Positions 3,176-37,582 of a stretch of DNA of 64,000 bases are shown one piece after another. A model generated the notes under the pieces. That model was not told where the DNA came from. It made no database searches and saw nothing but the letters and a program-made list of their open reading frames with translations. The stretch covers positions 75,688-139,687 of the forward strand of contig CAKZSV010000012.1 of assembly GCA_937921485.1 (NCBI GenBank), given 5' to 3'. A program made the translations under genes and the position numbers. Position 1 is the stretch's first letter; each line of letters starts with the position of its first letter. The stretch is from an uncultured bacterium. GTDB taxonomy: Bacteria; Spirochaetota; UBA4802; JAGODF01.

Positions 3176-4474
3176 ATGTTTATACAACGCTTGCGCGATC
3201 TCACTTCAAAGGAACTCGACGCGTTTTTCAATCGTTTTGGAGATGATTTTAGTGCAGTTCTTCTCAATACCGTCATTCCCATCGTGAACGACGTGCGAGA
3301 GAATGGCGATGCGGCGGTGAAGAAATATACGAAAAAATTCGATAGCGTCGATCTCCCATCTCTCATTGTATCTGACAGCGAATTTGAAGCTGCGGCGAGG
3401 TGCATTGACAGAGCCGTTTTTGATGCATTTTTAGAAGCAAAGAAAAATATTGAAGAATTTCATTCCCGCCAGCTTAAAAACATTCTCTCCTACACCAGAA
3501 GCGACGGAACTATGCTCGGCGTGTATCATCACCCCATTGAACGTGCGGCGGTCTATGTTCCCGGCGGTAAAGCAGCATATCCATCAACGGTGCTCATGGG
3601 TACGCTACCCGCAAAGATAGCCGGCGTGAAGGATATTTCCATCATCACCCCTCCCACCAAGGAGGGAGGCGTTCATCCGATGGTGCTTGCACTCTGCCGC
3701 GAACTCGGCGTCAGCCGTGTGGTGAAATCGGGCGGAGCGCAGGGAATCGCCGCCGCGGGATTCGGCACAGAAACAGTTGCGAAGGCAGACATCATAGTCG
3801 GTCCCGGCAATATCTATGTAACAGCGGCGAAGACCTATCTTTTCAGTTTGGGTGTGGTACAGATCGATTCGCCGGCCGGCCCGAGCGAAGTGCTTATCAT
3901 CGCCGATGAAAGCGCGAATCCCCGCTGGGTGGCATGGGATCTGCTCTCGCAGGCAGAGCATGAGGAGATGGCACTTTCGGTACTTGTAACCACTTCTGAG
4001 AAGCTGGCAAGTGAGGTGGCGTCGTATATACGCGAGGATCTGGAAAGCGGGCGGGGACGCAGCGAAATAAAGAAAAAATCCATAGAGCGCGGCTGTTCAA
4101 TTCTCATAGCGGATTCAATTGATGAAGCGATTGATTTTTCAAACCGGTATGGACCGGAGCACATGGAGATGATGGTTGAAAACGCAAGGGAATTCCTTCC
4201 CCGCATAAAAAACGTAGGATCGCTCTTTCTGGGACAGTATGCTCCCGTCGCGGTGGGAGATTATTTCTCCGGCACGAATCATATCCTTCCGACAGGAGGA
4301 ACCGCGCGCTTCACCTCTGGAGTTTCAGTGGATACCTTTCTGCGGCGGACTACCTTTCAAGAGCTTTCTTATGAGGCGCTCGCGAAAGCGCGGACATCGG
4401 TGGTCCTTATGTCGAAATCGGAGGGTTTCGGCGATAAACACGGCGGGTCGGTTGAAGTGAGGTTTGAAAAATAA
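3176..4474 (+). CDS. hisD: Histidinol dehydrogenase
   Basis: Motifs 'YVPGGKAAYPSTVLM', 'GPGNIYV', 'AGPSE', 'DLLSQAEH', 'PEH' and 'GDYFSGTNHILPTGG'. Confidence 0.97.
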   Translation: MFIQRLRDLTSKELDAFFNRFGDDFSAVLLNTVIPIVNDVRENGDAAVKKYTKKFDSVDLPSLIVSDSEFEAAARCIDRAVFDAFLEAKKNIEEFHSRQLKNILSYTRSDGTMLGVYHHPIERAAVYVPGGKAAYPSTVLMGTLPAKIAGVKDISIITPPTKEGGVHPMVLALCRELGVSRVVKSGGAQGIAAAGFGTETVAKADIIVGPGNIYVTAAKTYLFSLGVVQIDSPAGPSEVLIIADESANPRWVAWDLLSQAEHEEMALSVLVTTSEKLASEVASYIREDLESGRGRSEIKKKSIERGCSILIADSIDEAIDFSNRYGPEHMEMMVENAREFLPRIKNVGSLFLGQYAPVAVGDYFSGTNHILPTGGTARFTSGVSVDTFLRRTTFQELSYEALAKARTSVVLMSKSEGFGDKHGGSVEVRFEK

Positions 4475-5128
4475 TCACCACTCCACGATTTTCCATCCGC
4501 GCTTTTTCGCCAGCCTGCGAAGCTTCCGATCGGGCGTGACGCAGACGGGGTTTCCCACGCGTTCCATGATATGCATATCGGCAAGGGCATCGCCGTAGTA
4601 CCAGGCTTTTTCCATGTCAAAGTTATGTCGTATGCAATATTCCATTGCCTTTTTGAGCTTCACGGGTCCGTAGCAGTAATCGCCGTCTAAATTTCCCGTG
4701 AAAATGCCGTCCCGCACTTCAAGCTTTGTGGTGATGATATCATCCATGCCGAGATACTCCCTCACCGGTTGGCAGCCATAATTGGTAGACGCGGAGAGGA
4801 TTACCGTGCGCGCGCCGTTTTCGCGGTGGCGGCGGATTTCTTCAAATGCGGATATCCTGATGTGCGGTTTCACCATTTTATCAAACCAGAGAATCGTATG
4901 TTCCAGCGTCTCGCGTTCAGGCAGCCCCCGGTATTTCATCACCCATTTTTTTATCACCTCTTCTGTGGCGAAAAAACCAAAGCGATGGAGAATCGAAAGG
5001 AAAATTCCCTTCGTTAGGTCAAGTTTGCCAATCATTCCTTCGTCGTGAAGATACCTGATGTAGAGGCGCGCACTGCTGGTATCGAGTATTGTGTGGTCTA
5101 AATCGAAAAACGCTACATAGCGGTGCAT
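4475..5128 (-). CDS. HAD-superfamily subfamily IB hydrolase (SerB/PSPase-like)
   Basis: 'FFDLDHTI' DxD motif, 'LSAS' and 'YYGDALADM'. Confidence 0.9.
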   Translation of the reverse strand: MHRYVAFFDLDHTILDTSSARLYIRYLHDEGMIGKLDLTKGIFLSILHRFGFFATEEVIKKWVMKYRGLPERETLEHTILWFDKMVKPHIRISAFEEIRRHRENGARTVILSASTNYGCQPVREYLGMDDIITTKLEVRDGIFTGNLDGDYCYGPVKLKKAMEYCIRHNFDMEKAWYYGDALADMHIMERVGNPVCVTPDRKLRRLAKKRGWKIVEW

Positions 5129-5266
5129 GCAAGCTTCCTTAAACTTGTGTTGTATCCTGAAAACATCACCCGATTATGCTTTTTTCTGATTGACAATCTG
5201 ATGCTCTGAGCTATTGATAGAGAAATGCGAATAAAAATCAACAATTGTTTTAAAGAAATTTAACCA

Positions 5267-5887
5267 ATGAACATGCGTGTGATGATGAAAACAATTGCGC
5301 TTGCGGCCATCATAATCCTGCCATTTTGCCAGACATACTCCCCGCGCGAGCAGGAGGTTCTGGATTTTTCGAAGGGCAATACGACCGGCTACGAGAAATA
5401 TCTGGTCGAGATCGGCCAGTACACCACCGGCGGAAAAGTGTACCACGAAAAATATTATGCGCATCTTTTAGGCATTGCGAGGATGGCATCGGAAAAATAC
5501 AAACTGTCGTTGATTAAAAACAGCATCGGTTTTTATCACGATAAAAAATCGAAGGATGTGACGAAGCTCTATCTCGGCGTGGACTTCATCGTGCCCTCGA
5601 AAGAGGATTATCCCTACGGTGCGATGGTGGAACATCTCTTGAAGAAACATCTTTCGGATTTTCTGTTCATCACGCAGTCATGCCAGAGCATATTCGATGA
5701 GCCGGATATTGCCGGATCGGTTATTGGGATGCGGTGGAATGATGGAGCAAAAGGGAATATGTTCAATTTCTGGATAGAAAAAAAAGACGCAGAGCTTTTC
5801 GAAAAAAACCGCATTACGCTTGCAGAACTCATCGAGCGGAACACCATCACCAACGCGTCGGGGCAGATTATACGGCTGAGGAAGTGA
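5267..5887 (+). CDS. Hypothetical lipoprotein
   Basis: Hydrophobic N-terminus ending 'ILPFC', a spirochaete-like lipobox; protein-like composition. Confidence 0.65.
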   Translation: MNMRVMMKTIALAAIIILPFCQTYSPREQEVLDFSKGNTTGYEKYLVEIGQYTTGGKVYHEKYYAHLLGIARMASEKYKLSLIKNSIGFYHDKKSKDVTKLYLGVDFIVPSKEDYPYGAMVEHLLKKHLSDFLFITQSCQSIFDEPDIAGSVIGMRWNDGAKGNMFNFWIEKKDAELFEKNRITLAELIERNTITNASGQIIRLRK

Positions 5888-27154: not shown

Positions 27155-27264
27155 TGATAATATCCTGTAATAAGAGTGATGATGGCACACCATGTGCGCT
27201 CGTATTCCGGGAAATAACATTCCCCGGAAATGTCAATGTAAAAAGAATATAAGCTGGGAATTGT

Positions 27265-27311
27265 GAAAGGGCTCTGACCCTACTGAAGAAAAGGTGCAAT
27301 GGCTCTGACCC
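27265..27311 (+). repeat. Two REP-like motifs GG(G)CTCTGACCC downstream of the RAYT gene
   Basis: GAAAGGGCTCTGACCC at 27265-27280 and GGCTCTGACCC at 27301-27311. Confidence 0.8.
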
Positions 27312-27569
27312 TTCTTTCTGACCAATGAGGGAAACTCAATACACCTGGTATCACTATTGGAAAAATTGAAAAAGATGGTTGAACTAAATTTCTTAGAAAG
27401 AATTCGATTTGAGGATAAAATGGCTAACAGGTGAAGGCAATTTTTAAGGCGTATTCGGATCTGTACGCTTTTGGAATGAATTGATAATTACGAGGAATTG
27501 TAGTGAAAACCTCGTACAATTGATAAATAGCAGGTATAACGATATGAATTAGGAATGAATTTTTTAATG

Positions 27570-28166
27570 TTATATCCAATCGATAATGGAATATCGTTTT
27601 CGATATAGTTCCTCGTAATGAAGAAATCGTTTCAATCGCTCCTTAAAAGTTTCACCTAAGTTTAAGAAAAAATCGTGATAATCTATTGGCACTTCTATAT
27701 TCGGATTTCCCTCGACATAGGCTCTGATACTGCTATATGAATAGTTTAAAGGATTTGAGCATAATCTTTTTCGAACTGGATTAAACGCAAGATACCACAA
27801 AAGCCAAAGTAAATAATGACACGCATCTTTCGCAAATTGAACAATGCTGTCTTTGTACCTCCCGTTCCAGAATGGCCCCGTTCGTTTCACAATTTTGTTA
27901 TAAAGCTCCGCGAATCGAGATTTGATATACTGCACAATTCTTGAGATGGATGTTCCACCTGGCAGAGTGTGAATAATAAGGTGAATGTGGTTGGGCATGA
28001 TGCAGTACGCAATAAGCTTAAAGTGATATTTTTGTTTGCTTCTGCGCAAAATTTCAAGAAAACACTCTTTGAAATAATCTTCTCCAATCATGTCGCGCCA
28101 TTCGATGCATTGAGAAACGATATGATAAGTTAGGTCGGGTTGTTGAATTCGATTTGGGCGTGGCAT
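27570..28166 (-). mobile_element. HUH/Y1 transposase-like protein, REP-associated tyrosine transposase (RAYT/TnpA-REP) type
   Basis: 'MPRPNR', 'YHIV', 'AYCIMPNHIHL' (HUH), 'TGPFWNGRY', 'NPVR' and 'YSSIRAY'; AT-rich and flanked by short repeats. Confidence 0.88.
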
Positions 28167-28241
28167 GTTATTCCTCCAAATAAGATTTCTTTTCCCTCAC
28201 CTATTAATACGCAAAATTTCGTAAAAAAATAAATTTTTTTT

Positions 28242-28351
28242 GGGGGTCAGAGCTTTTTTTGTAGTTTTTTTCTATGTCGAGTATGTGGGGTCAAAGCCAT
28301 AGCTTATAAAATACTGTTAGTCGAAAGGGCGAAAGGGCTTTGACCCCACAT
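28242..28351. repeat. Three REP-like motifs upstream of the RAYT gene, including a 16-bp inverted pair
   Basis: GGGGGTCAGAGC at 28242-28253. ATGTGGGGTCAAAGCC (28283-28298) pairs perfectly with GGCTTTGACCCCACAT (28336-28351), with a 37-nt loop. Confidence 0.85.
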
Positions 28352-28497: not shown

Positions 28498-30273
28498 GTG
28501 GTGAAAGAATGGACCGGCAGGGTATTTATTGAGACAGCAGGGGAGCTTGGAAATATCCTGATGTCAAGCGATGACCGCGAGACGGTACGTCGCCGCGTGC
28601 TGGATTATGTGAACAAACTCCACTTCGATACTTTCTCAGGTAATGTACGGGACCTCCATGTTCTCGACCTAATAATTGTTCGGGACTGTGCGCGGGCATG
28701 GCGCAGCATTCTTAATCCGCGCAGCGAGAAAATTTCGGGATTTAGTGTTCTTGATGCGCTCATGAGGGCATCAAGAGGCATGGACGATAGGGCTCTGACC
28801 CCTTCATTCTGGGCAGATATCATTCATCTCACCTGGGGCATACAGGGGAGAGTGCGCTTGCATACCGAACAGATGGTGAAATACATTGATGCCGGAGACT
28901 TTCACGGAAGGGAGGCTGCAAAGCTACGGTCACATGAGCTCGATAGTATTGAAATGTATATGGATAAACTGATGTCGCGATATGAAAGCGGCCTTAGCGA
29001 GGAAGCAGTGGTTCGTCGAACAATGAGAAGGAAGGCGATACTGAAGACTCTTAAAGGAACATCTCGGGATTGGAAAAACTGGAAATGGCATATCAGGCAT
29101 ATTGCGAAAAATTCTGATGCACTCTCGAGGATGGTAAATCTCACAGATGAAGAGAAATCCTTGATAGATACGGCTGTCTCCTCATCTATTCCCTTCGGTG
29201 TGACACCGTACTACGCGTCACTTTTCGATGATGATCCGAGCGCGGGACGCGATCGGTCTATCCGTGCCCAGGTAATTCCGCCGAAAACCTACATCGATGC
29301 GTTTCACGAAAAAACTTCGGACTACATGCTTGAGGCCGATACCTCGCCGATAGACCTGATAACCAGAAGGTACGTTGAAGTCCTCATCCTGAAACCATTC
29401 AACACATGCCCGCAAATTTGCGTGTACTGTCAGCGCAACTGGGAAATCAAAAGTGCTATGGCACCTGGAGCAATGGCATCAGCGGAGAACCTGAACCGAG
29501 CCATCGAGTGGATACGAAACAACGCATCCATCAAGGAGGTGCTCGTTACCGGAGGTGATCCTCTGGTCATGACGGATCCGGTATTGAAAAAAATTCTGGA
29601 CCGCCTGGCTGATATCCCTCATGTAGAGCGCATTCGCATAGGCACACGAACTCCTGTTACTCTGCCAATGCGGTTTACGCCAGAACTCATCAGACTCATT
29701 TCATCATACAATGTTCCGAAACGACGGGAAATGTGCGTGATGACTCACATTCAGCACCCATACGAAGTAACCCCGGAATTATCTGCTGCTACCAATGCGC
29801 TGCGCCGCCATGGTATTCGAGTGTATAACCAGCTCGTATATACCTTTTATATATCTCGACGCTTTGCGGCTGCTGCACTGCGAAGGCTTATCAGGCTCTG
29901 CGGTGTCGATCCGTACTATACCTTTTATCCAAAGGGTAAGGAAGAGACTGCCGATTATCGTGTCCCTGTTGCTCGTCTGGTTCAGGAACAAAAGGAGGAG
30001 TCAAGGCTTCTTCCGGGACTTTGCAGAACCGATGAGGCAGTATTCAACCTCCCCGGGCTTGGAAAGAACTACCTCAACGCCTGGCAGCATCGGGATCTTA
30101 TTTCGATACGTTCCGATGGATCTCGAATCTATGAGTTCCACCCATGGGAAAAGAAAATCGGTCCCCAACAGACGTATATTGGGGAAGACGTGCCAATCCT
30201 CGATTACCTGAGGCGTCTGGAATCGATTGGAGAAAATCCCGCTGATTATGAGAGTATCTGGTATTATTTTTAA
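28498..30273 (+). CDS. KamA-family radical SAM protein (lysine 2,3-aminomutase-like, long form)
   Basis: 'WKNWKWH', 'PFGVTPYY', 'ITRRY', CxxxCxxC 'CPQICVYCQR', 'TGGDPL', 'RIGTRTP' and a PLP-lysine-like 'PGLGK'. Confidence 0.88.
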   Translation: MVKEWTGRVFIETAGELGNILMSSDDRETVRRRVLDYVNKLHFDTFSGNVRDLHVLDLIIVRDCARAWRSILNPRSEKISGFSVLDALMRASRGMDDRALTPSFWADIIHLTWGIQGRVRLHTEQMVKYIDAGDFHGREAAKLRSHELDSIEMYMDKLMSRYESGLSEEAVVRRTMRRKAILKTLKGTSRDWKNWKWHIRHIAKNSDALSRMVNLTDEEKSLIDTAVSSSIPFGVTPYYASLFDDDPSAGRDRSIRAQVIPPKTYIDAFHEKTSDYMLEADTSPIDLITRRYVEVLILKPFNTCPQICVYCQRNWEIKSAMAPGAMASAENLNRAIEWIRNNASIKEVLVTGGDPLVMTDPVLKKILDRLADIPHVERIRIGTRTPVTLPMRFTPELIRLISSYNVPKRREMCVMTHIQHPYEVTPELSAATNALRRHGIRVYNQLVYTFYISRRFAAAALRRLIRLCGVDPYYTFYPKGKEETADYRVPVARLVQEQKEESRLLPGLCRTDEAVFNLPGLGKNYLNAWQHRDLISIRSDGSRIYEFHPWEKKIGPQQTYIGEDVPILDYLRRLESIGENPADYESIWYYF

Positions 30274-32795: not shown

Positions 32796-32850
32796 GAAGG
32801 GGTCAGAGCCCTGTCAAGCCAGAATTTTTCCAGATAGGGGTCAGAGCCTC
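32796..32850 (-). repeat. Two tandem copies of the RAYT-associated motif in the divergent promoter region
   Basis: GAAGGGGTCAGAGCCCTGTC at 32796-32815 and GGGGTCAGAGCCTC at 32837-32850. Confidence 0.8.
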
Positions 32851-33934: not shown

Positions 33935-35119
33935 ATGAAACTCCAGAAACTGTTATGGTGTACAATCGCTACAGTGCTTATTATCGCAGGGGGAGCGCTG
34001 CTCCCCCTTTTTGCCCAGGAAAACCTTGATGCCGAAGTAGATAAACTCCTTGGGGGAAAAAGCGCAGTTGAGGAACGCAGTGCAGAAAAATCCGCAGGAT
34101 TTTTAGACCGCACGTCGATGCCGAACATCTTTGTTGCGGCCGATATGGTGGGGGGAAAAGACCTCACCGCGCAAAGAAACTCCCCGGAGGCTCTGACCCC
34201 CAATGGCGTTAAGGTGCGCAGCGCTGAAGTGGGCCTTTTCGGCGGCATCGACCACCTTGCGCTTGGCACGGTAAATCTGGCCGTGCACGAAGAGGAAGGA
34301 AAATATTTCGTAGAACTGCACGAAGCCTATTTCGAGTTCAACACGCTTCCCTGGAATCTCTATGCGAAGCTCGGCCGCTTTTTTTTAGACGTGGGGCGGC
34401 TCAATTCCATTCATCAGCACGACTGGCATTTTACCACCACGCCGCTGGTACATGCCATGCTCTTCGATGTGGAAGGAGTCTTTGATCAGGGCGGAGAGGT
34501 GTCTCTTCTTATGCCATGGCAATGGTATCAGGAACTGAAGGTTGGTTTTTTCAATGGCCGAAGCTGGGGGCATACGCACGGGGAGGGAGCCGTCAAACCC
34601 GGCCCGCTTGTCACGGCGCGCCTTAAGCATTTTATCCCGATTTATGGCGAGCTTGGCACGCAATTCGGGTTTACGTATATTCGCTATCTTGTCGATGAAG
34701 AGGGCAGGGAAATCGATCACACCGGGGGTGCGGATCTCACGTTCAAATGGCAGCGGGGGCGTTACCGGAGCTTTATTTTTTCAACCGAATACTGGTATCG
34801 CTATGAAGTGCGTCCGGATGCCGTGCAGGACAATACAAAGCACGGCTTCTATTCGTATGTGCAGTACCAGTTTCATCAATACTGGCTTGCGGGATTCCGG
34901 TACGATTACTACGCTGAACTCGATGTGAGGTCATCATCCGGAAGCAGCATCGACCGCCAGAGTTTTGCGCAATTGCTGTGGGTAACGCTGCGTCCATCAG
35001 AATTTTCGTATTTTCGCATAACAGGTGAGCGGAGTGATGTGTTCGGCACGGAATTAAACTATGCGGTGTATGTGCAGGCCGATTTTATTTTAGGGTATCA
35101 TCCCGCGCATCGCTATTAA
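33935..35119 (+). CDS. Outer-membrane beta-barrel of metal-uptake loci ('zinc-regulated OM receptor'-like)
   Basis: Signal peptide, 'ELHEAY', 'LGRF...GRLNSIHQHDW', 'HTHGE' and a terminal 'LGYHPAHRY'. Confidence 0.72.
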   Translation: MKLQKLLWCTIATVLIIAGGALLPLFAQENLDAEVDKLLGGKSAVEERSAEKSAGFLDRTSMPNIFVAADMVGGKDLTAQRNSPEALTPNGVKVRSAEVGLFGGIDHLALGTVNLAVHEEEGKYFVELHEAYFEFNTLPWNLYAKLGRFFLDVGRLNSIHQHDWHFTTTPLVHAMLFDVEGVFDQGGEVSLLMPWQWYQELKVGFFNGRSWGHTHGEGAVKPGPLVTARLKHFIPIYGELGTQFGFTYIRYLVDEEGREIDHTGGADLTFKWQRGRYRSFIFSTEYWYRYEVRPDAVQDNTKHGFYSYVQYQFHQYWLAGFRYDYYAELDVRSSSGSSIDRQSFAQLLWVTLRPSEFSYFRITGERSDVFGTELNYAVYVQADFILGYHPAHRY

Positions 35120-36693: not shown

Positions 36694-37582
36694 AAAAATC
36701 GTATATTATGCGGCACAGTACGGCGCGCAGCTTGCAATGAGCATTCCCTATTTTGCCGTGGTATCTTTCGCGGGATTATTCCTTGTGCTGCGCCGCGCAA
36801 GCCTCTTTGGGCTGGTGCTTTCAGCGTCATCGCAGCTTGCCTTTGTTCTGGGCATGGCGCTTCACCTGGTAAGCCACGAGAGCACCAACGCGCTTGTCCT
36901 CATGCAGAACCCTGAAAACGTGGTAGCGGATTTGCTGCACATGGATGTGTATCTTTTCCCATTGCTTGCCTGCGTGATGCTGCCCCTGGTGATATTCATG
37001 AGCAGGGGGATTATCAACACAGAAAGCGTGCTGGCCATTCTCTTTGTATCTCTCATGGGTCTGATTCCGCTGGCAAATAAGCTCACCGGCGGGTCGGACC
37101 TTTTGCTGCTCAAGGCATATTTCACGGAAATTCTCTATACGCCCGGGCGCGTATTTTCGCACTATCTTGTGCATCTTTGTCTGATGGCGTTTACACTTTC
37201 AGTTTTTTTCAGGAAATTTCTCATTACAGGCTTTGACCCCATTCAGGCGCGGCTTTCTGGCCTTCGCGTGGAAGCGCTTAATATGCTCTTTTATTTCTGT
37301 GCGGGTTTTACCATCGCGCTGTGCGTTCGGGTGCTCGGTATCCTGGTAACGATGATGGCCCTTATCGCACCAGGGGTGATAGCGCTTGCAAGCTTTCAGA
37401 AAATGCGAAGCGTCATCGCTGCGACGATTGCGTTGTCTGTGCTCTTTGCAATTACGGGTTTCGGCATTTCGTTCGCGTTCGATACACTGCCGGCAGAGCC
37501 GACAATTATTGTGATATTCGGTATTGCGTCGCTTCTGGTGTGGGGTGGGAAAAAGCTTTTTGCGGCGATTAACAGGGGATGA
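36680..37582 (+). CDS. Metal ABC transporter permease
   Basis: Multi-TM protein with 'TGFDP..A' and 'LGILV'; start moved to the ATG at 36680. Confidence 0.85.
   Translation: MELHEKIVYYAAQYGAQLAMSIPYFAVVSFAGLFLVLRRASLFGLVLSASSQLAFVLGMALHLVSHESTNALVLMQNPENVVADLLHMDVYLFPLLACVMLPLVIFMSRGIINTESVLAILFVSLMGLIPLANKLTGGSDLLLLKAYFTEILYTPGRVFSHYLVHLCLMAFTLSVFFRKFLITGFDPIQARLSGLRVEALNMLFYFCAGFTIALCVRVLGILVTMMALIAPGVIALASFQKMRSVIAATIALSVLFAITGFGISFAFDTLPAEPTIIVIFGIASLLVWGGKKLFAAINRG

What the first reader, a model, noticed from the sequence alone, without database searches (positions are those of the whole stretch)
27265..28351. RAYT/Y1 transposase framed by paired inverted and direct REP-like motifs
Seen: two GGCTCTGACCC motifs on the left, two inverted GGGGTCA(G/A)AGC motifs on the right, and a fifth copy that forms a 16-bp-stem hairpin (28283-28351). 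It also makes a 16-nt direct repeat with 27265-27280 (1 mismatch). Smaller hairpins lie 3' of the gene (TACGAGG/CCTCGTA at 27489-27516). Known: HUH/Y1 TnpA-REP enzymes cut ssDNA at hairpin REPs, and the classical REPs are short palindromes with GTAG/GGAG feet. Inference: this motif is not itself palindromic and has a GGGG end, so it may define a different substrate class, with the layout of a mobilisable unit.
Basis: partly seen in the sequence, partly recalled or inferred. Interest (0 to 1): 0.75.

Follow-up and report, generated by a model that had tools for sequence, protein, structure and literature searches.

The report
RAYT-like gene framed by GGGG-repeats (TIRtron)
A small single-strand-DNA nuclease gene of the RAYT/IS200 superfamily in an uncultured spirochaete is bracketed by inverted copies of a short non-palindromic DNA word; this layout was described in 2013 as a "TIRtron", so it is a clear new example of a known but little-studied kind.

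Summary
The ORF at 27570-28166(-) is an intact class-2 Y1/HUH protein (HUH 60-62, Y125-x3-NP; best fold match E. coli TnpA-REP, 4ER8). It is framed by the word A(G/T)GCTCTGACCCC (= GGGGTCAGAGC): two copies 3' of the gene, three 5', two of which form a 16-bp hairpin.

But this class is already published: Di Nocera 2013 described TIRYT/TIRtrons, RAYT-like genes flanked by inverted repeats with consensus GGGGWSAS, and GGGGTCAG fits it.

- **Tree:** the spirochaete clade is sister to subclass-2.1-like proteins whose genes carry GGGGACAG or GGGGTCAGAG repeats.
- **Paralogues:** the genome has 5+1 old paralogues (dN/dS 0.06-0.17), each with its own repeat set.
- **Matched variant:** the divergent paralogue's subclade uses CTCTGACACC instead.
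- **Amplification:** the two words occur 60 and 34 times, against 0-5 for one-mismatch neighbours.
- **Mobility:** one paralogue's locus is empty in two same-genus genomes.

Verdict: a new lineage of a known, biochemically untested kind. How the word is recognised and cut is inferred, not shown.

The parts
27265..27281 (+). Outer repeat copy 3' of the gene (GAAAGGGCTCTGACCCT). On the gene's sense strand it reads GGGTCAGAGCCC, about 293 nt after the stop.
27296..27312 (+). Inner repeat copy 3' of the gene (CAATGGCTCTGACCCTT).
27313..27569 (-). Unique 3' spacer between the stop codon and the repeats. It includes the weak hairpin at 27489-27516. Spacers are not alignable between paralogues. In the one orthologous pair measured (the C6 paralogue and its G001 counterpart) the spacer is about 92% identical.
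27570..28166 (-). RAYT-like class-2 Y1/HUH gene of TIRYT type, 198 aa. HUH is N59-H60-I61-H62. The catalytic Tyr is Y125, within Y125-L-A-F-N129-P130.
28167..28242 (-). Leader and promoter region. It has an RBS GGAGG (28173-28177), a conserved CGTATTAATAGGTGAGGG block containing a -10-like TATTAAT (28203-28209), and an A/T-run palindrome. The layout is conserved among paralogues.
   Evidence: The consensus promoter scan did not call it.
28243..28253 (-). Gene-proximal repeat copy (AGCTCTGACCCCC in an A-tract), 87 nt before the start codon. A copy at -85 to -135 is usual across the clade: 24 of the 28 motif-bearing loci that include upstream sequence have one.
28283..28351 (.). Inverted pair of repeat copies forming a perfect 16-bp hairpin with a 37-nt loop (REPIN-like doublet).
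28791..28801 (+). In-frame copy inside the KamA-like radical-SAM gene (codons R-A-L-T-P). It arose by substitution in a conserved coding context, not by insertion.
32800..32848 (-). Solo direct doublet of the motif (32800-32810 and 32838-32848) in an intergenic region.
34189..34199 (+). Solo copy of the motif.
37229..37239 (+). Solo copy of the motif (T variant).
41976..41986 (-). Solo copy of the motif (T variant).

Best explanation
This is a TIRtron. A RAYT-like (TIRYT-type) class-2 Y1/HUH single-strand DNA nuclease gene, with its own conserved leader, is bracketed by iterated and inversely oriented copies of a 12-13-nt non-palindromic word. The word is A(G/T)GCTCTGACCCC, which reads GGGGTCAGAGC on the other strand and belongs to the published GGGGWSAS type.

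**Shown here**
- The enzyme has the complete HUH + Y-x3-NP catalytic signature and a TnpA-REP-like fold.
- The word is specifically linked to this protein clade.
- The word variant changes together with the protein subclade.
- Both variants are amplified in the genome.
- The whole unit is present or absent between same-genus genomes.
- The genes are kept under strong purifying selection.

**Inferred by analogy with E. coli TnpA-REP and IS608 TnpA**
- The protein reads the word on one strand of transiently single-stranded DNA.
- It cuts next to or within the word using Y125 (5'-phosphotyrosine) and the HUH-bound metal.
- It rejoins ends between two copies.
- Inverted copies such as 28283-28351, or the two sides of the unit, can pair as hairpins that bring two sites together.

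Over evolutionary time this would account for the unit's insertion into intergenic sites and for the solo copies and clusters. In this genome the copies are old and vertically inherited, not freshly transposing.
For: **Protein**
- Pfam and NCBIfam matches.
- H60, H62 and N129 are invariant across 42 homologues. W100, Y125 and P130 are kept in at least 90% of them.
- The AlphaFold2 model has pLDDT 93.7. Its best PDB fold match is 4ER8, TnpA-REP, at E 2e-8 and TM 0.70.

**Motif linkage**
- Positions around the paralogues and orthologues.
- 16 of 16 Spirochaetota loci against 3 of 64 loci from other phyla.

**Known class**
- GGGGWSAS TIRs of TIRYT (PMC3733652; PMC6006769).
- The sister clade carries GGGGACAG TIRs, including a 2+2 layout in a Planctomycetia contig.
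- A P. aeruginosa plasmid gene with the subclass-2.1 signature NHVH/WE/YIELNP is flanked by GGGGACAGATTTATTT. A Skermanella plasmid gene has GGGGTCAG three times upstream, two of them reading GGGGTCAGAG.

**Matched variants**
- The C68-type subclade uses CTYTGACACC in 16 of 26 sites. All other subclades use GACCC[CT].
- Genome counts are 60 and 34, against 0-5 for nine one-mismatch neighbours.

**Mobility and inheritance**
- The C42 locus is filled in G000 and G001 and empty in G002 and G003.
- Copies within G022 share 73-94% nt identity, 88-94% within its closest subgroup. Their homology ends at the stop codon, where six of the ten copies carry the motif.
- The C6 locus is colinear with G001 at 89%.
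- dN/dS is 0.06-0.17.
Against: - There is no biochemical evidence for any TIRYT. Binding, strand choice and cleavage position are inferred.
- The repeat orientation relative to the gene is not constant across lineages. The GGGG end faces inward here and in Lachnospiraceae. It faces outward in the L005-7 clade and in the Pseudomonas and Skermanella plasmids. A single fixed end architecture is therefore not established.
- The subclass-2.1 C-terminal HTH domain is not detected, and the motif signatures differ (NHIH / WN / YLAFNP). The clade is a sister of 2.1, not a member of it.
- The intergenic DNA at the empty site is too diverged to place the unit's borders at the nucleotide level. Gain cannot be strictly told from loss.
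- All the genomes are fragmented MAGs.
Confidence: 0.75

Rival explanations
1. The unit is a currently active, autonomous insertion sequence (TIR-RAYT-TIR) that is still transposing in this genome.
For: - Presence/absence polymorphism at the C42 locus.
- 19-26 matches, many cut at contig ends, in G022 and G027, and at least 10 copies in Uz-U4-13.
- Copies within G022's closest subgroup share 88-94% nt identity, with a sharp right border.
Against: - The five copies in this genome are only 70-81% identical at the nucleotide level. dS is 0.8 to saturation, and there are no near-identical pairs.
- Four of them have 93-97% identical partners in G001. One of these, the C6 locus, is colinear over the whole 2.6 kb, and the C42 locus is colinear as far as G001's contig reaches.
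- dN/dS of 0.06-0.17 over long times fits retained function rather than IS turnover.
Confidence: 0.15
2. The genes are domesticated. The repeats are mainly binding or regulatory sites, for example autoregulation at the copy near -87 or nucleoid and replication-linked functions, and DNA movement is incidental.
For: - A copy usually sits just upstream of the conserved leader, at -85 to -135.
- Vertical inheritance and purifying selection.
- Low genomic copy number (60 and 34) compared with classical REPs.
- Bertels 2017 argues that RAYTs in general are domesticated (PMC5581495).
Against: - The catalytic residues are fully conserved.
- Units are gained or lost as blocks and are amplified in other genomes.
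- Solo clusters are dispersed in the genome.
Confidence: 0.3
3. The motif is unrelated to the enzyme. It would be a host transcription-factor site, a terminator or a chance word that happens to lie near the gene.
For: Single copies have no structure, and some copies lie inside genes.
Against: - Ten copies against 0.06 expected in the window.
- The motif flanks all six paralogues and orthologues across the order.
- The motif variant tracks the protein subclade.
- The same GGGGWSAS core flanks relatives in other phyla.
Confidence: 0.03

Closest known systems
TIRYT / TIRtron (Di Nocera, De Gregorio & Rocco 2013, BMC Genomics 14:522, PMC3733652)
   Same: - A RAYT-like Y1/HUH gene flanked by terminal inverted repeats that are not REP palindromes.
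- The repeats carry GGGGWSAS; here it is GGGGTCAG.
- Repeat families of moderate size occur as singles, dimers or groups elsewhere in the genome.
   Different: - The host is Spirochaetota, which the TIRYT passages read in that paper do not mention.
- There are 2-4 iterated copies per side.
- There are five plus one paralogues in one genome, with two matched motif variants.
- A unique spacer of 250-330 nt lies between the stop codon and the 3' repeats in this genus.
TnpA-Y1 subclass 2.1 (Quentin et al. 2018, PMC6006769), equal to RAYT Group 1 of Bertels et al. 2017
   Same: - Class-2 signature Y-x3-NP and NHxH.
- No canonical REP.
- TIRs of the GGGG[AT][CG]A[CG] type.
- In the tree, the spirochaete clade is the sister of proteins with 2.1-like signatures (YIHLNP, FQ).
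   Different: - No Bac_DnaA_C, HTH_23 or HTH_28-like C-terminal domain was detected.
- The protein is 198 aa, against a median of 238.
- The signatures are NHIH / FWN / YLAFNP, not NHVH / W[EQ] / YIELNP.
E. coli TnpA-REP (RayT/YafM; PDB 4ER8) with its REPtron and REPINs
   Same: - Best structural match.
- The gene is bracketed by its matched repeats in inverted orientation.
- Inverted doublets form hairpins, as at 28283-28351.
   Different: - Only about 20% identity, with no sequence-level PDB hit.
- The repeats have no GT[AG]G foot and no palindrome of their own.
- There are tens rather than hundreds of copies.
- The gene is multi-copy.
IS200/IS605 TnpA (IS608, ISDra2)
   Same: The HUH/Y1 fold and chemistry. 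In some related genomes the family is also multi-copy.
   Different: - The Y motif is Y-x3-NP, not Y-x3-Q.
- The ends are inverted short words, not subterminal hairpins on one strand.
- There is no tnpB.
- The copies are not near-identical.

Membership tests
Y1/HUH TnpA-Y1 superfamily, class 2 (RAYT/TnpA-REP-like) | HUH motif | tested here: met
   N59-H60-I61-H62. H60 and H62 are invariant in 42 homologues.
Y1/HUH TnpA-Y1 superfamily, class 2 (RAYT/TnpA-REP-like) | Catalytic Tyr within Y-x-x-x-N-P (class 1 and class 3 have a Q-type Y motif instead) | tested here: met
   Y125-L-A-F-N129-P130. N129 is invariant; Y125 and P130 are kept in at least 90% of homologues. The definition is from PMC6006769.
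Y1/HUH TnpA-Y1 superfamily, class 2 (RAYT/TnpA-REP-like) | TnpA-REP-like fold | tested here: met
   The model has pLDDT 93.7. 4ER8 ranks first (E 2.2e-8, TM 0.70 on the target), ahead of ISDra2 and IS608.
Y1/HUH TnpA-Y1 superfamily, class 2 (RAYT/TnpA-REP-like) | Cleavage and rejoining of single-stranded DNA at the matched repeat | not testable with these tools
   This needs purified protein and oligonucleotides.
Canonical REPtron (RAYT + REP/REPIN) | Flanking repeats are imperfect palindromes with a 5' GT[AG]G foot | tested here: not met
   The word is AKGCTCTGACCCC. There is no GTAG, no excess complementarity in the flanks, and no fold for single copies.
Canonical REPtron (RAYT + REP/REPIN) | A single-copy gene with a population of hundreds of REPs | tested here: not met
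   There are six Y1 genes. The two word variants have 60 and 34 copies.
TIRYT / TIRtron | A RAYT-like gene flanked by inverted repeats that are not REPs | tested here: met
   The four own-genome paralogues seen with both flanks, and most orthologues, carry inversely oriented copies on both sides. The fifth close paralogue is cut at a contig end.
TIRYT / TIRtron | The repeats carry the GGGGWSAS motif | tested here: met
   GGGGTCAG(AGCC). The consensus is from PMC3733652. The same core flanks relatives in other phyla.
TnpA-Y1 subclass 2.1 | C-terminal HTH-like domain (Bac_DnaA_C, HTH_23 or HTH_28) | tested here: not met
   No such Pfam hit in any of 42 members at E up to 1. The model's C-terminus is short helices followed by one long helix at 174-197.
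TnpA-Y1 subclass 2.1 | Signatures NHVH or NH[YF]H; W[EQ] or FQ; YIELNP or Y[IV]HLNP | tested here: not met
   The window protein has NHIH / FWN / YLAFNP, and some clade members have NHFH. The sister clade has the 2.1-like signatures. The tree places the spirochaete clade as a sister, not inside.
IS200/IS605 | Y-x3-Q motif, subterminal hairpins on one strand, near-identical copies, often tnpB | tested here: not met
   The Y motif is Y-x3-NP. The ends are inverted short words. The copies share 70-81% nt identity. No neighbouring long ORF lies inside the unit. NCBIfam transpos_IS200 scores 39.6, below its cut-off of 55.

The most novel reading that the evidence does not exclude
TIRYT-type Y1/HUH enzymes may recognise a linear 12-13-nt word (GGGGTCAGAGC) through iterated sites, rather than a DNA hairpin with a guide tetranucleotide. 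That would be a hairpin-independent recognition mode within the IS200/RAYT superfamily. Specificity would be set by one or two bases (CCCC against CACC) and would co-evolve with the protein. The word would also act as a recombination hot-spot that can break genes: in the sister species, homology with this window's KamA-like gene starts exactly at the in-frame copy.
Probability: 0.3. Interest if true: 0.6.

Novelty: new member of a known kind. Interest (0 to 1): 0.4.

Why it matters
TIRYT/TIRtrons were named in 2013. The held literature mentions them only once more, in 2018, and no enzyme of this type has been tested biochemically.

This spirochaete family offers a clean natural experiment. Two matched enzyme-and-word pairs (GACCCC and GACACC) coexist in one genome. 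The word core is conserved across phyla. One locus is both filled and empty within a genus. That makes recognition specificity and cleavage directly testable with a few oligonucleotides and two small proteins.

It also explains a class of short dispersed repeats in Leptospira-like MAGs that coincide with contig ends (assembly breaks).

Tried and rejected
- **Motif as a mini-hairpin (GGGG-CTCTGA-CCCC).** Own-genome copies suggested this. Across 271 unique copies the flanks pair no more often than shuffled flanks, and the left side is often AT/AG rather than GG.
- **Tandem arrays as CRISPR.** The 65-67-bp tandem arrays that carry the motif are repeat arrays with no unique spacers.
- **3' spacer as a conserved RNA or cargo.** There is no Rfam hit. 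Spacers share only the motif copies between paralogues. All are unique in the genome except for a MITE in the C25 copy.
- **The '125-bp inversion'.** The segment in the C25 spacer that looked inverted against G001 turned out to be a copy of the roughly 121-bp MITE family.
- **Empty sites at other loci.** The window's own locus and the C6 and C25 loci were unresolved, because synteny breaks or contigs end there.
- **Sequence-level PDB search.** It gave only weak IS200 hits. The fold search was needed.
- **Quentin 2018 supplements.** Table S1 does not list this motif, and neither supplementary file mentions spirochaetes.

Full report
**1. What is there**

The window is C12:75688-139687 of a 3.15-Mb, 84-contig MAG with 47% GC. 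Its same-genus relative is deposited as an uncultured 'Leptospira sp.' / Spirochaetota MAG.

ORF 27570-28166(-) encodes 198 aa. It matches Pfam Y1_Tnp at 1.8e-15. It scores 81.2 bits against NCBIfam REP_Tyr_transpos (cut-off 80) and 39.6 bits against transpos_IS200 (cut-off 55).

- GGCTYTGACCC occurs 10 times in the window, against 0.06 expected.
- 28283-28298 and 28336-28351 form a perfect 16-bp stem, at -18 kcal/mol and z = -5.7.
- Single copies and the direct doublet at 27260-27320 do not fold better than shuffles.
- The TACGAGG/CCTCGTA hairpin is weak.

**2. The gene is one of a family, each member with its own repeat set**

tblastn and a Pfam scan of the whole genome find exactly six Y1 genes. 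Five share 74-88% aa identity: C12, C80, C42, C6 and C25. The sixth, C68, is at 43%.

The four close paralogues seen with both flanks carry:
- 2-4 copies of GGCTCTGACCC(C) on the sense strand, 85-200 nt before the start codon;
- two inverted copies, 240-380 nt after the stop.

The fifth, C80, is cut at a contig end and shows only its two 3' copies.

The C68 gene is framed by a variant, GTGCTCTGACACC. Between the proximal copy and the start codon lie an A/T-run palindrome, a conserved CGTATTAATAGGTGAGGG block and a GGAGG RBS.

**3. Nature of the word**

Across 271 unique copies from this genome and related loci, the consensus is A-(G/T)-G-CTCTGA-CCCC-(T/A). The CCCC side is nearly fixed, but the left side is not GGGG. 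Complementarity of the flanks equals that of shuffled flanks. The word is therefore not a palindrome, and the mini-hairpin I first suspected was rejected.

**4. Linkage to orthologues**

- The family occurs in 31 of 41 related genomes, often in several copies: 19 matches in G022 and 26 in G027, many of them cut at contig ends.
- The 10-mer is present in 38 of 47 loci.
- It is in 16 of 16 Spirochaetota loci from GTDB genomes, against 3 of 64 loci encoding 27-42% identical relatives in other phyla.
- A copy at -85 to -135 is usual: 24 of the 28 motif-bearing loci that include upstream sequence have one.
- The rest of the layout varies: two copies before the gene and two inverted copies after it in this genus; arrays upstream plus one inverted copy right after the stop in G022; and the opposite polarity in the L005-7 clade, with a perfect inverted doublet upstream.

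**5. Specificity controls**
- The C68-type protein subclade (four genomes in two families) uses CTYTGACACC in 16 of 26 nearby sites. All other subclades use GACCC[CT].
- Genome-wide, CTCTGACCCC occurs 60 times and CTCTGACACC 34 times. Nine one-mismatch neighbours occur 0-5 times each.
- Of 83 hits to GCTYTGACCC, 22 flank the genes and 18 sit in 65-67-bp tandem arrays. The rest are solo copies or small direct clusters. The split between genes and intergenic DNA rests on crude ORF calls.

**6. The protein**
- In a 42-sequence alignment H60, H62, R103 and N129 are invariant. W100, Y125 and P130 are kept in at least 90% of members. This gives HUH plus Y-x3-NP, the class-2 signature of Quentin et al. 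2018.
- The AlphaFold2 model has pLDDT 93.7.
- Foldseek ranks E. coli TnpA-REP bound to a REP hairpin (4ER8) first, at E 2e-8 and TM 0.70. ISDra2, IS608 and IS200 follow. A sequence-only PDB search found only weak IS200 hits.
- No HTH-type Pfam domain appears in any member.

**7. What is known**

Di Nocera et al. 2013 described RAYT-like genes flanked not by REPs but by terminal inverted repeats. They named them TIRYT/TIRtrons, and many share the motif GGGGWSAS. Some have moderately abundant dispersed repeat families arranged as singles, dimers or groups. Our word read on the other strand, GGGGTCAG-AGCC, fits that consensus.

Quentin et al. 2018 place 20 of those 26 examples in subclass 2.1 (Bertels Group 1). 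This subclass has NHVH / W[EQ] / YIELNP signatures and an HTH-like C-terminus, and they quote GGGG[AT][CG]A[CG]. Only these two held papers mention TIRYT, and no biochemical work on a TIRYT turned up.

Tests made here:
- **Tree.** In an 88-sequence ML tree the spirochaete clade (support 100/97) is sister (99/93) to a clade of Lachnospiraceae, Planctomycetota, Omnitrophota and Bacillota proteins. E. coli RayT and the Ignavibacteria/Bacteroidota group lie on the other side.
- **Sister-clade signatures.** That sister clade has 2.1-like signatures (YIHLNP, FQ). Its genes carry GGGGACAG-type inverted repeats, including a 2+2 layout in a Planctomycetia contig.
- **Plasmid examples.** A P. aeruginosa plasmid gene with the exact 2.1 signature (NHVH, WE, YIELNP) is flanked by GGGGACAGATTTATTT. 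A Skermanella plasmid gene has GGGGTCAG three times upstream, two of them reading GGGGTCAGAG.

The element is therefore of the TIRYT kind. The protein clade is a sister lineage of 2.1, with its own signature (NHIH / FWN / YLAFNP) and no detected HTH.

**8. Mobile or domesticated?**
- Within this genome the copies share 70-81% nt identity, and dS is 0.8 to saturation.
- Four copies have 93-97% identical partners in the same-genus genome G001.
- The C6 locus is colinear with G001 over 2.6 kb at 89%. The ORF there (96%) is better conserved than the flanking genes (89-92%).
- dN/dS is 0.06-0.17 in every comparison.

These copies are old, functional and vertically inherited.

Yet the C42 unit sits between two divergent genes that are adjacent in G002 and G003, with only 190-240 nt between them and no gene or motif. 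That is an empty site. In G022 the copies within the closest subgroup share 88-94% nt identity. Their homology ends at the stop codon, where six of the ten copies carry the motif.

The family has clearly moved as a unit in the past and is more IS-like in some genomes. Current activity here is unproven.

**9. Mechanism**

*Shown:* an intact catalytic signature and fold, matched word-and-protein pairs, amplification of both words, and block presence/absence.

*Inferred from TnpA-REP and IS608:* strand-specific recognition of the word on single-stranded DNA, cleavage by Y125 with the HUH metal site, and rejoining between copies. Inverted copies would pair to bring sites together.

Whether a hairpin is needed at all is open. 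The word itself is linear, it is iterated 2-4 times per side, and its polarity relative to the gene differs between lineages.

**10. Verdict**

This is a new, well-delimited lineage of a known but experimentally untouched kind, with good material for a first biochemical test.

Noticed in passing
window 28791-28801, and L128 (G001:C63) 1-60: The in-frame motif copy in the KamA-like radical-SAM gene encodes R-A-L-T-P. Other genera keep the same protein context (PALSPAFWADIIH) without the motif, so the copy arose by substitution. In same-genus G001, homology with the window begins exactly at TGACCCC of this copy, and codons 1-99 are missing there. The first 52 nt of that contig are identical to the first 52 nt of the RAYT contig G001:C72. 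This is either a rearrangement or an assembly branch with its breakpoint at the motif.
   Followed up: partly
genome contigs C13:71000-71600 and 73950-74609, C80:1300-1810 and 4040-4480, C24:29240-29610, C35, C75, C9 (outside the window): Tandem arrays of 65-67-bp units lie in intergenic DNA and at contig ends. One unit type folds as a hairpin (GGGTGCTCC-TTT-GGGGCACCC). Another carries GGGGTCAGAGCCCC at the same position and does not fold. They are not CRISPR arrays, because there are no unique spacers.
   Followed up: partly
L034 (G000:C25) 864-985, the 3' spacer of the C25 paralogue: This is a copy of a dispersed repeat of about 121 bp (MITE-like), with about 100 copies in this genome and at least 40 in G001. 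It lies in the opposite orientation in the orthologous spacer of G001:C11, which at first looked like a 125-bp inversion.
   Followed up: partly
genome contigs C30:9600-10006, C39:197-382 and 4818-5449, C26:50111-50249, C67 (outside the window): Clusters of the variant word CTCTGACACC, the one matched to the C68 paralogue, lie far from any Y1 gene. There are 34 copies in the genome, only about 5 of them near C68.
   Followed up: no
L033 924-1004 (leader of the C6 paralogue): The A/T-rich palindromic stretch between the proximal motif copy and the -10-like box has 40-80-nt matches (73-89% identity) at 20 or more other places in G001 and G002. It has almost none in this genome.
   Followed up: no
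L052 (DYKF01000419.1, 1047-bp contig labelled Caldithrix sp.): It encodes a 74% identical copy with the same motif. It nests inside the own-genus clade in the tree, so it is probably a mis-binned spirochaete contig rather than a transfer between phyla.
   Followed up: no
L156 (P. aeruginosa plasmid NZ_CP116719.1) and L157 (Skermanella mucosa plasmid pSM-2): These annotated 'transposase' genes of subclass-2.1 type are flanked by GGGGACAGATTTATTT (two copies upstream, one inverted downstream) and by three upstream GGGGTCAG copies, two of them reading GGGGTCAGAG. They are cultured-strain examples usable as comparators.
   Followed up: partly
window 27.2-42.0 kb: Six motif copies that do not flank the gene lie within about 13 kb of it, against roughly one per 73 kb genome-wide. 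This is local clustering around the unit.
   Followed up: partly
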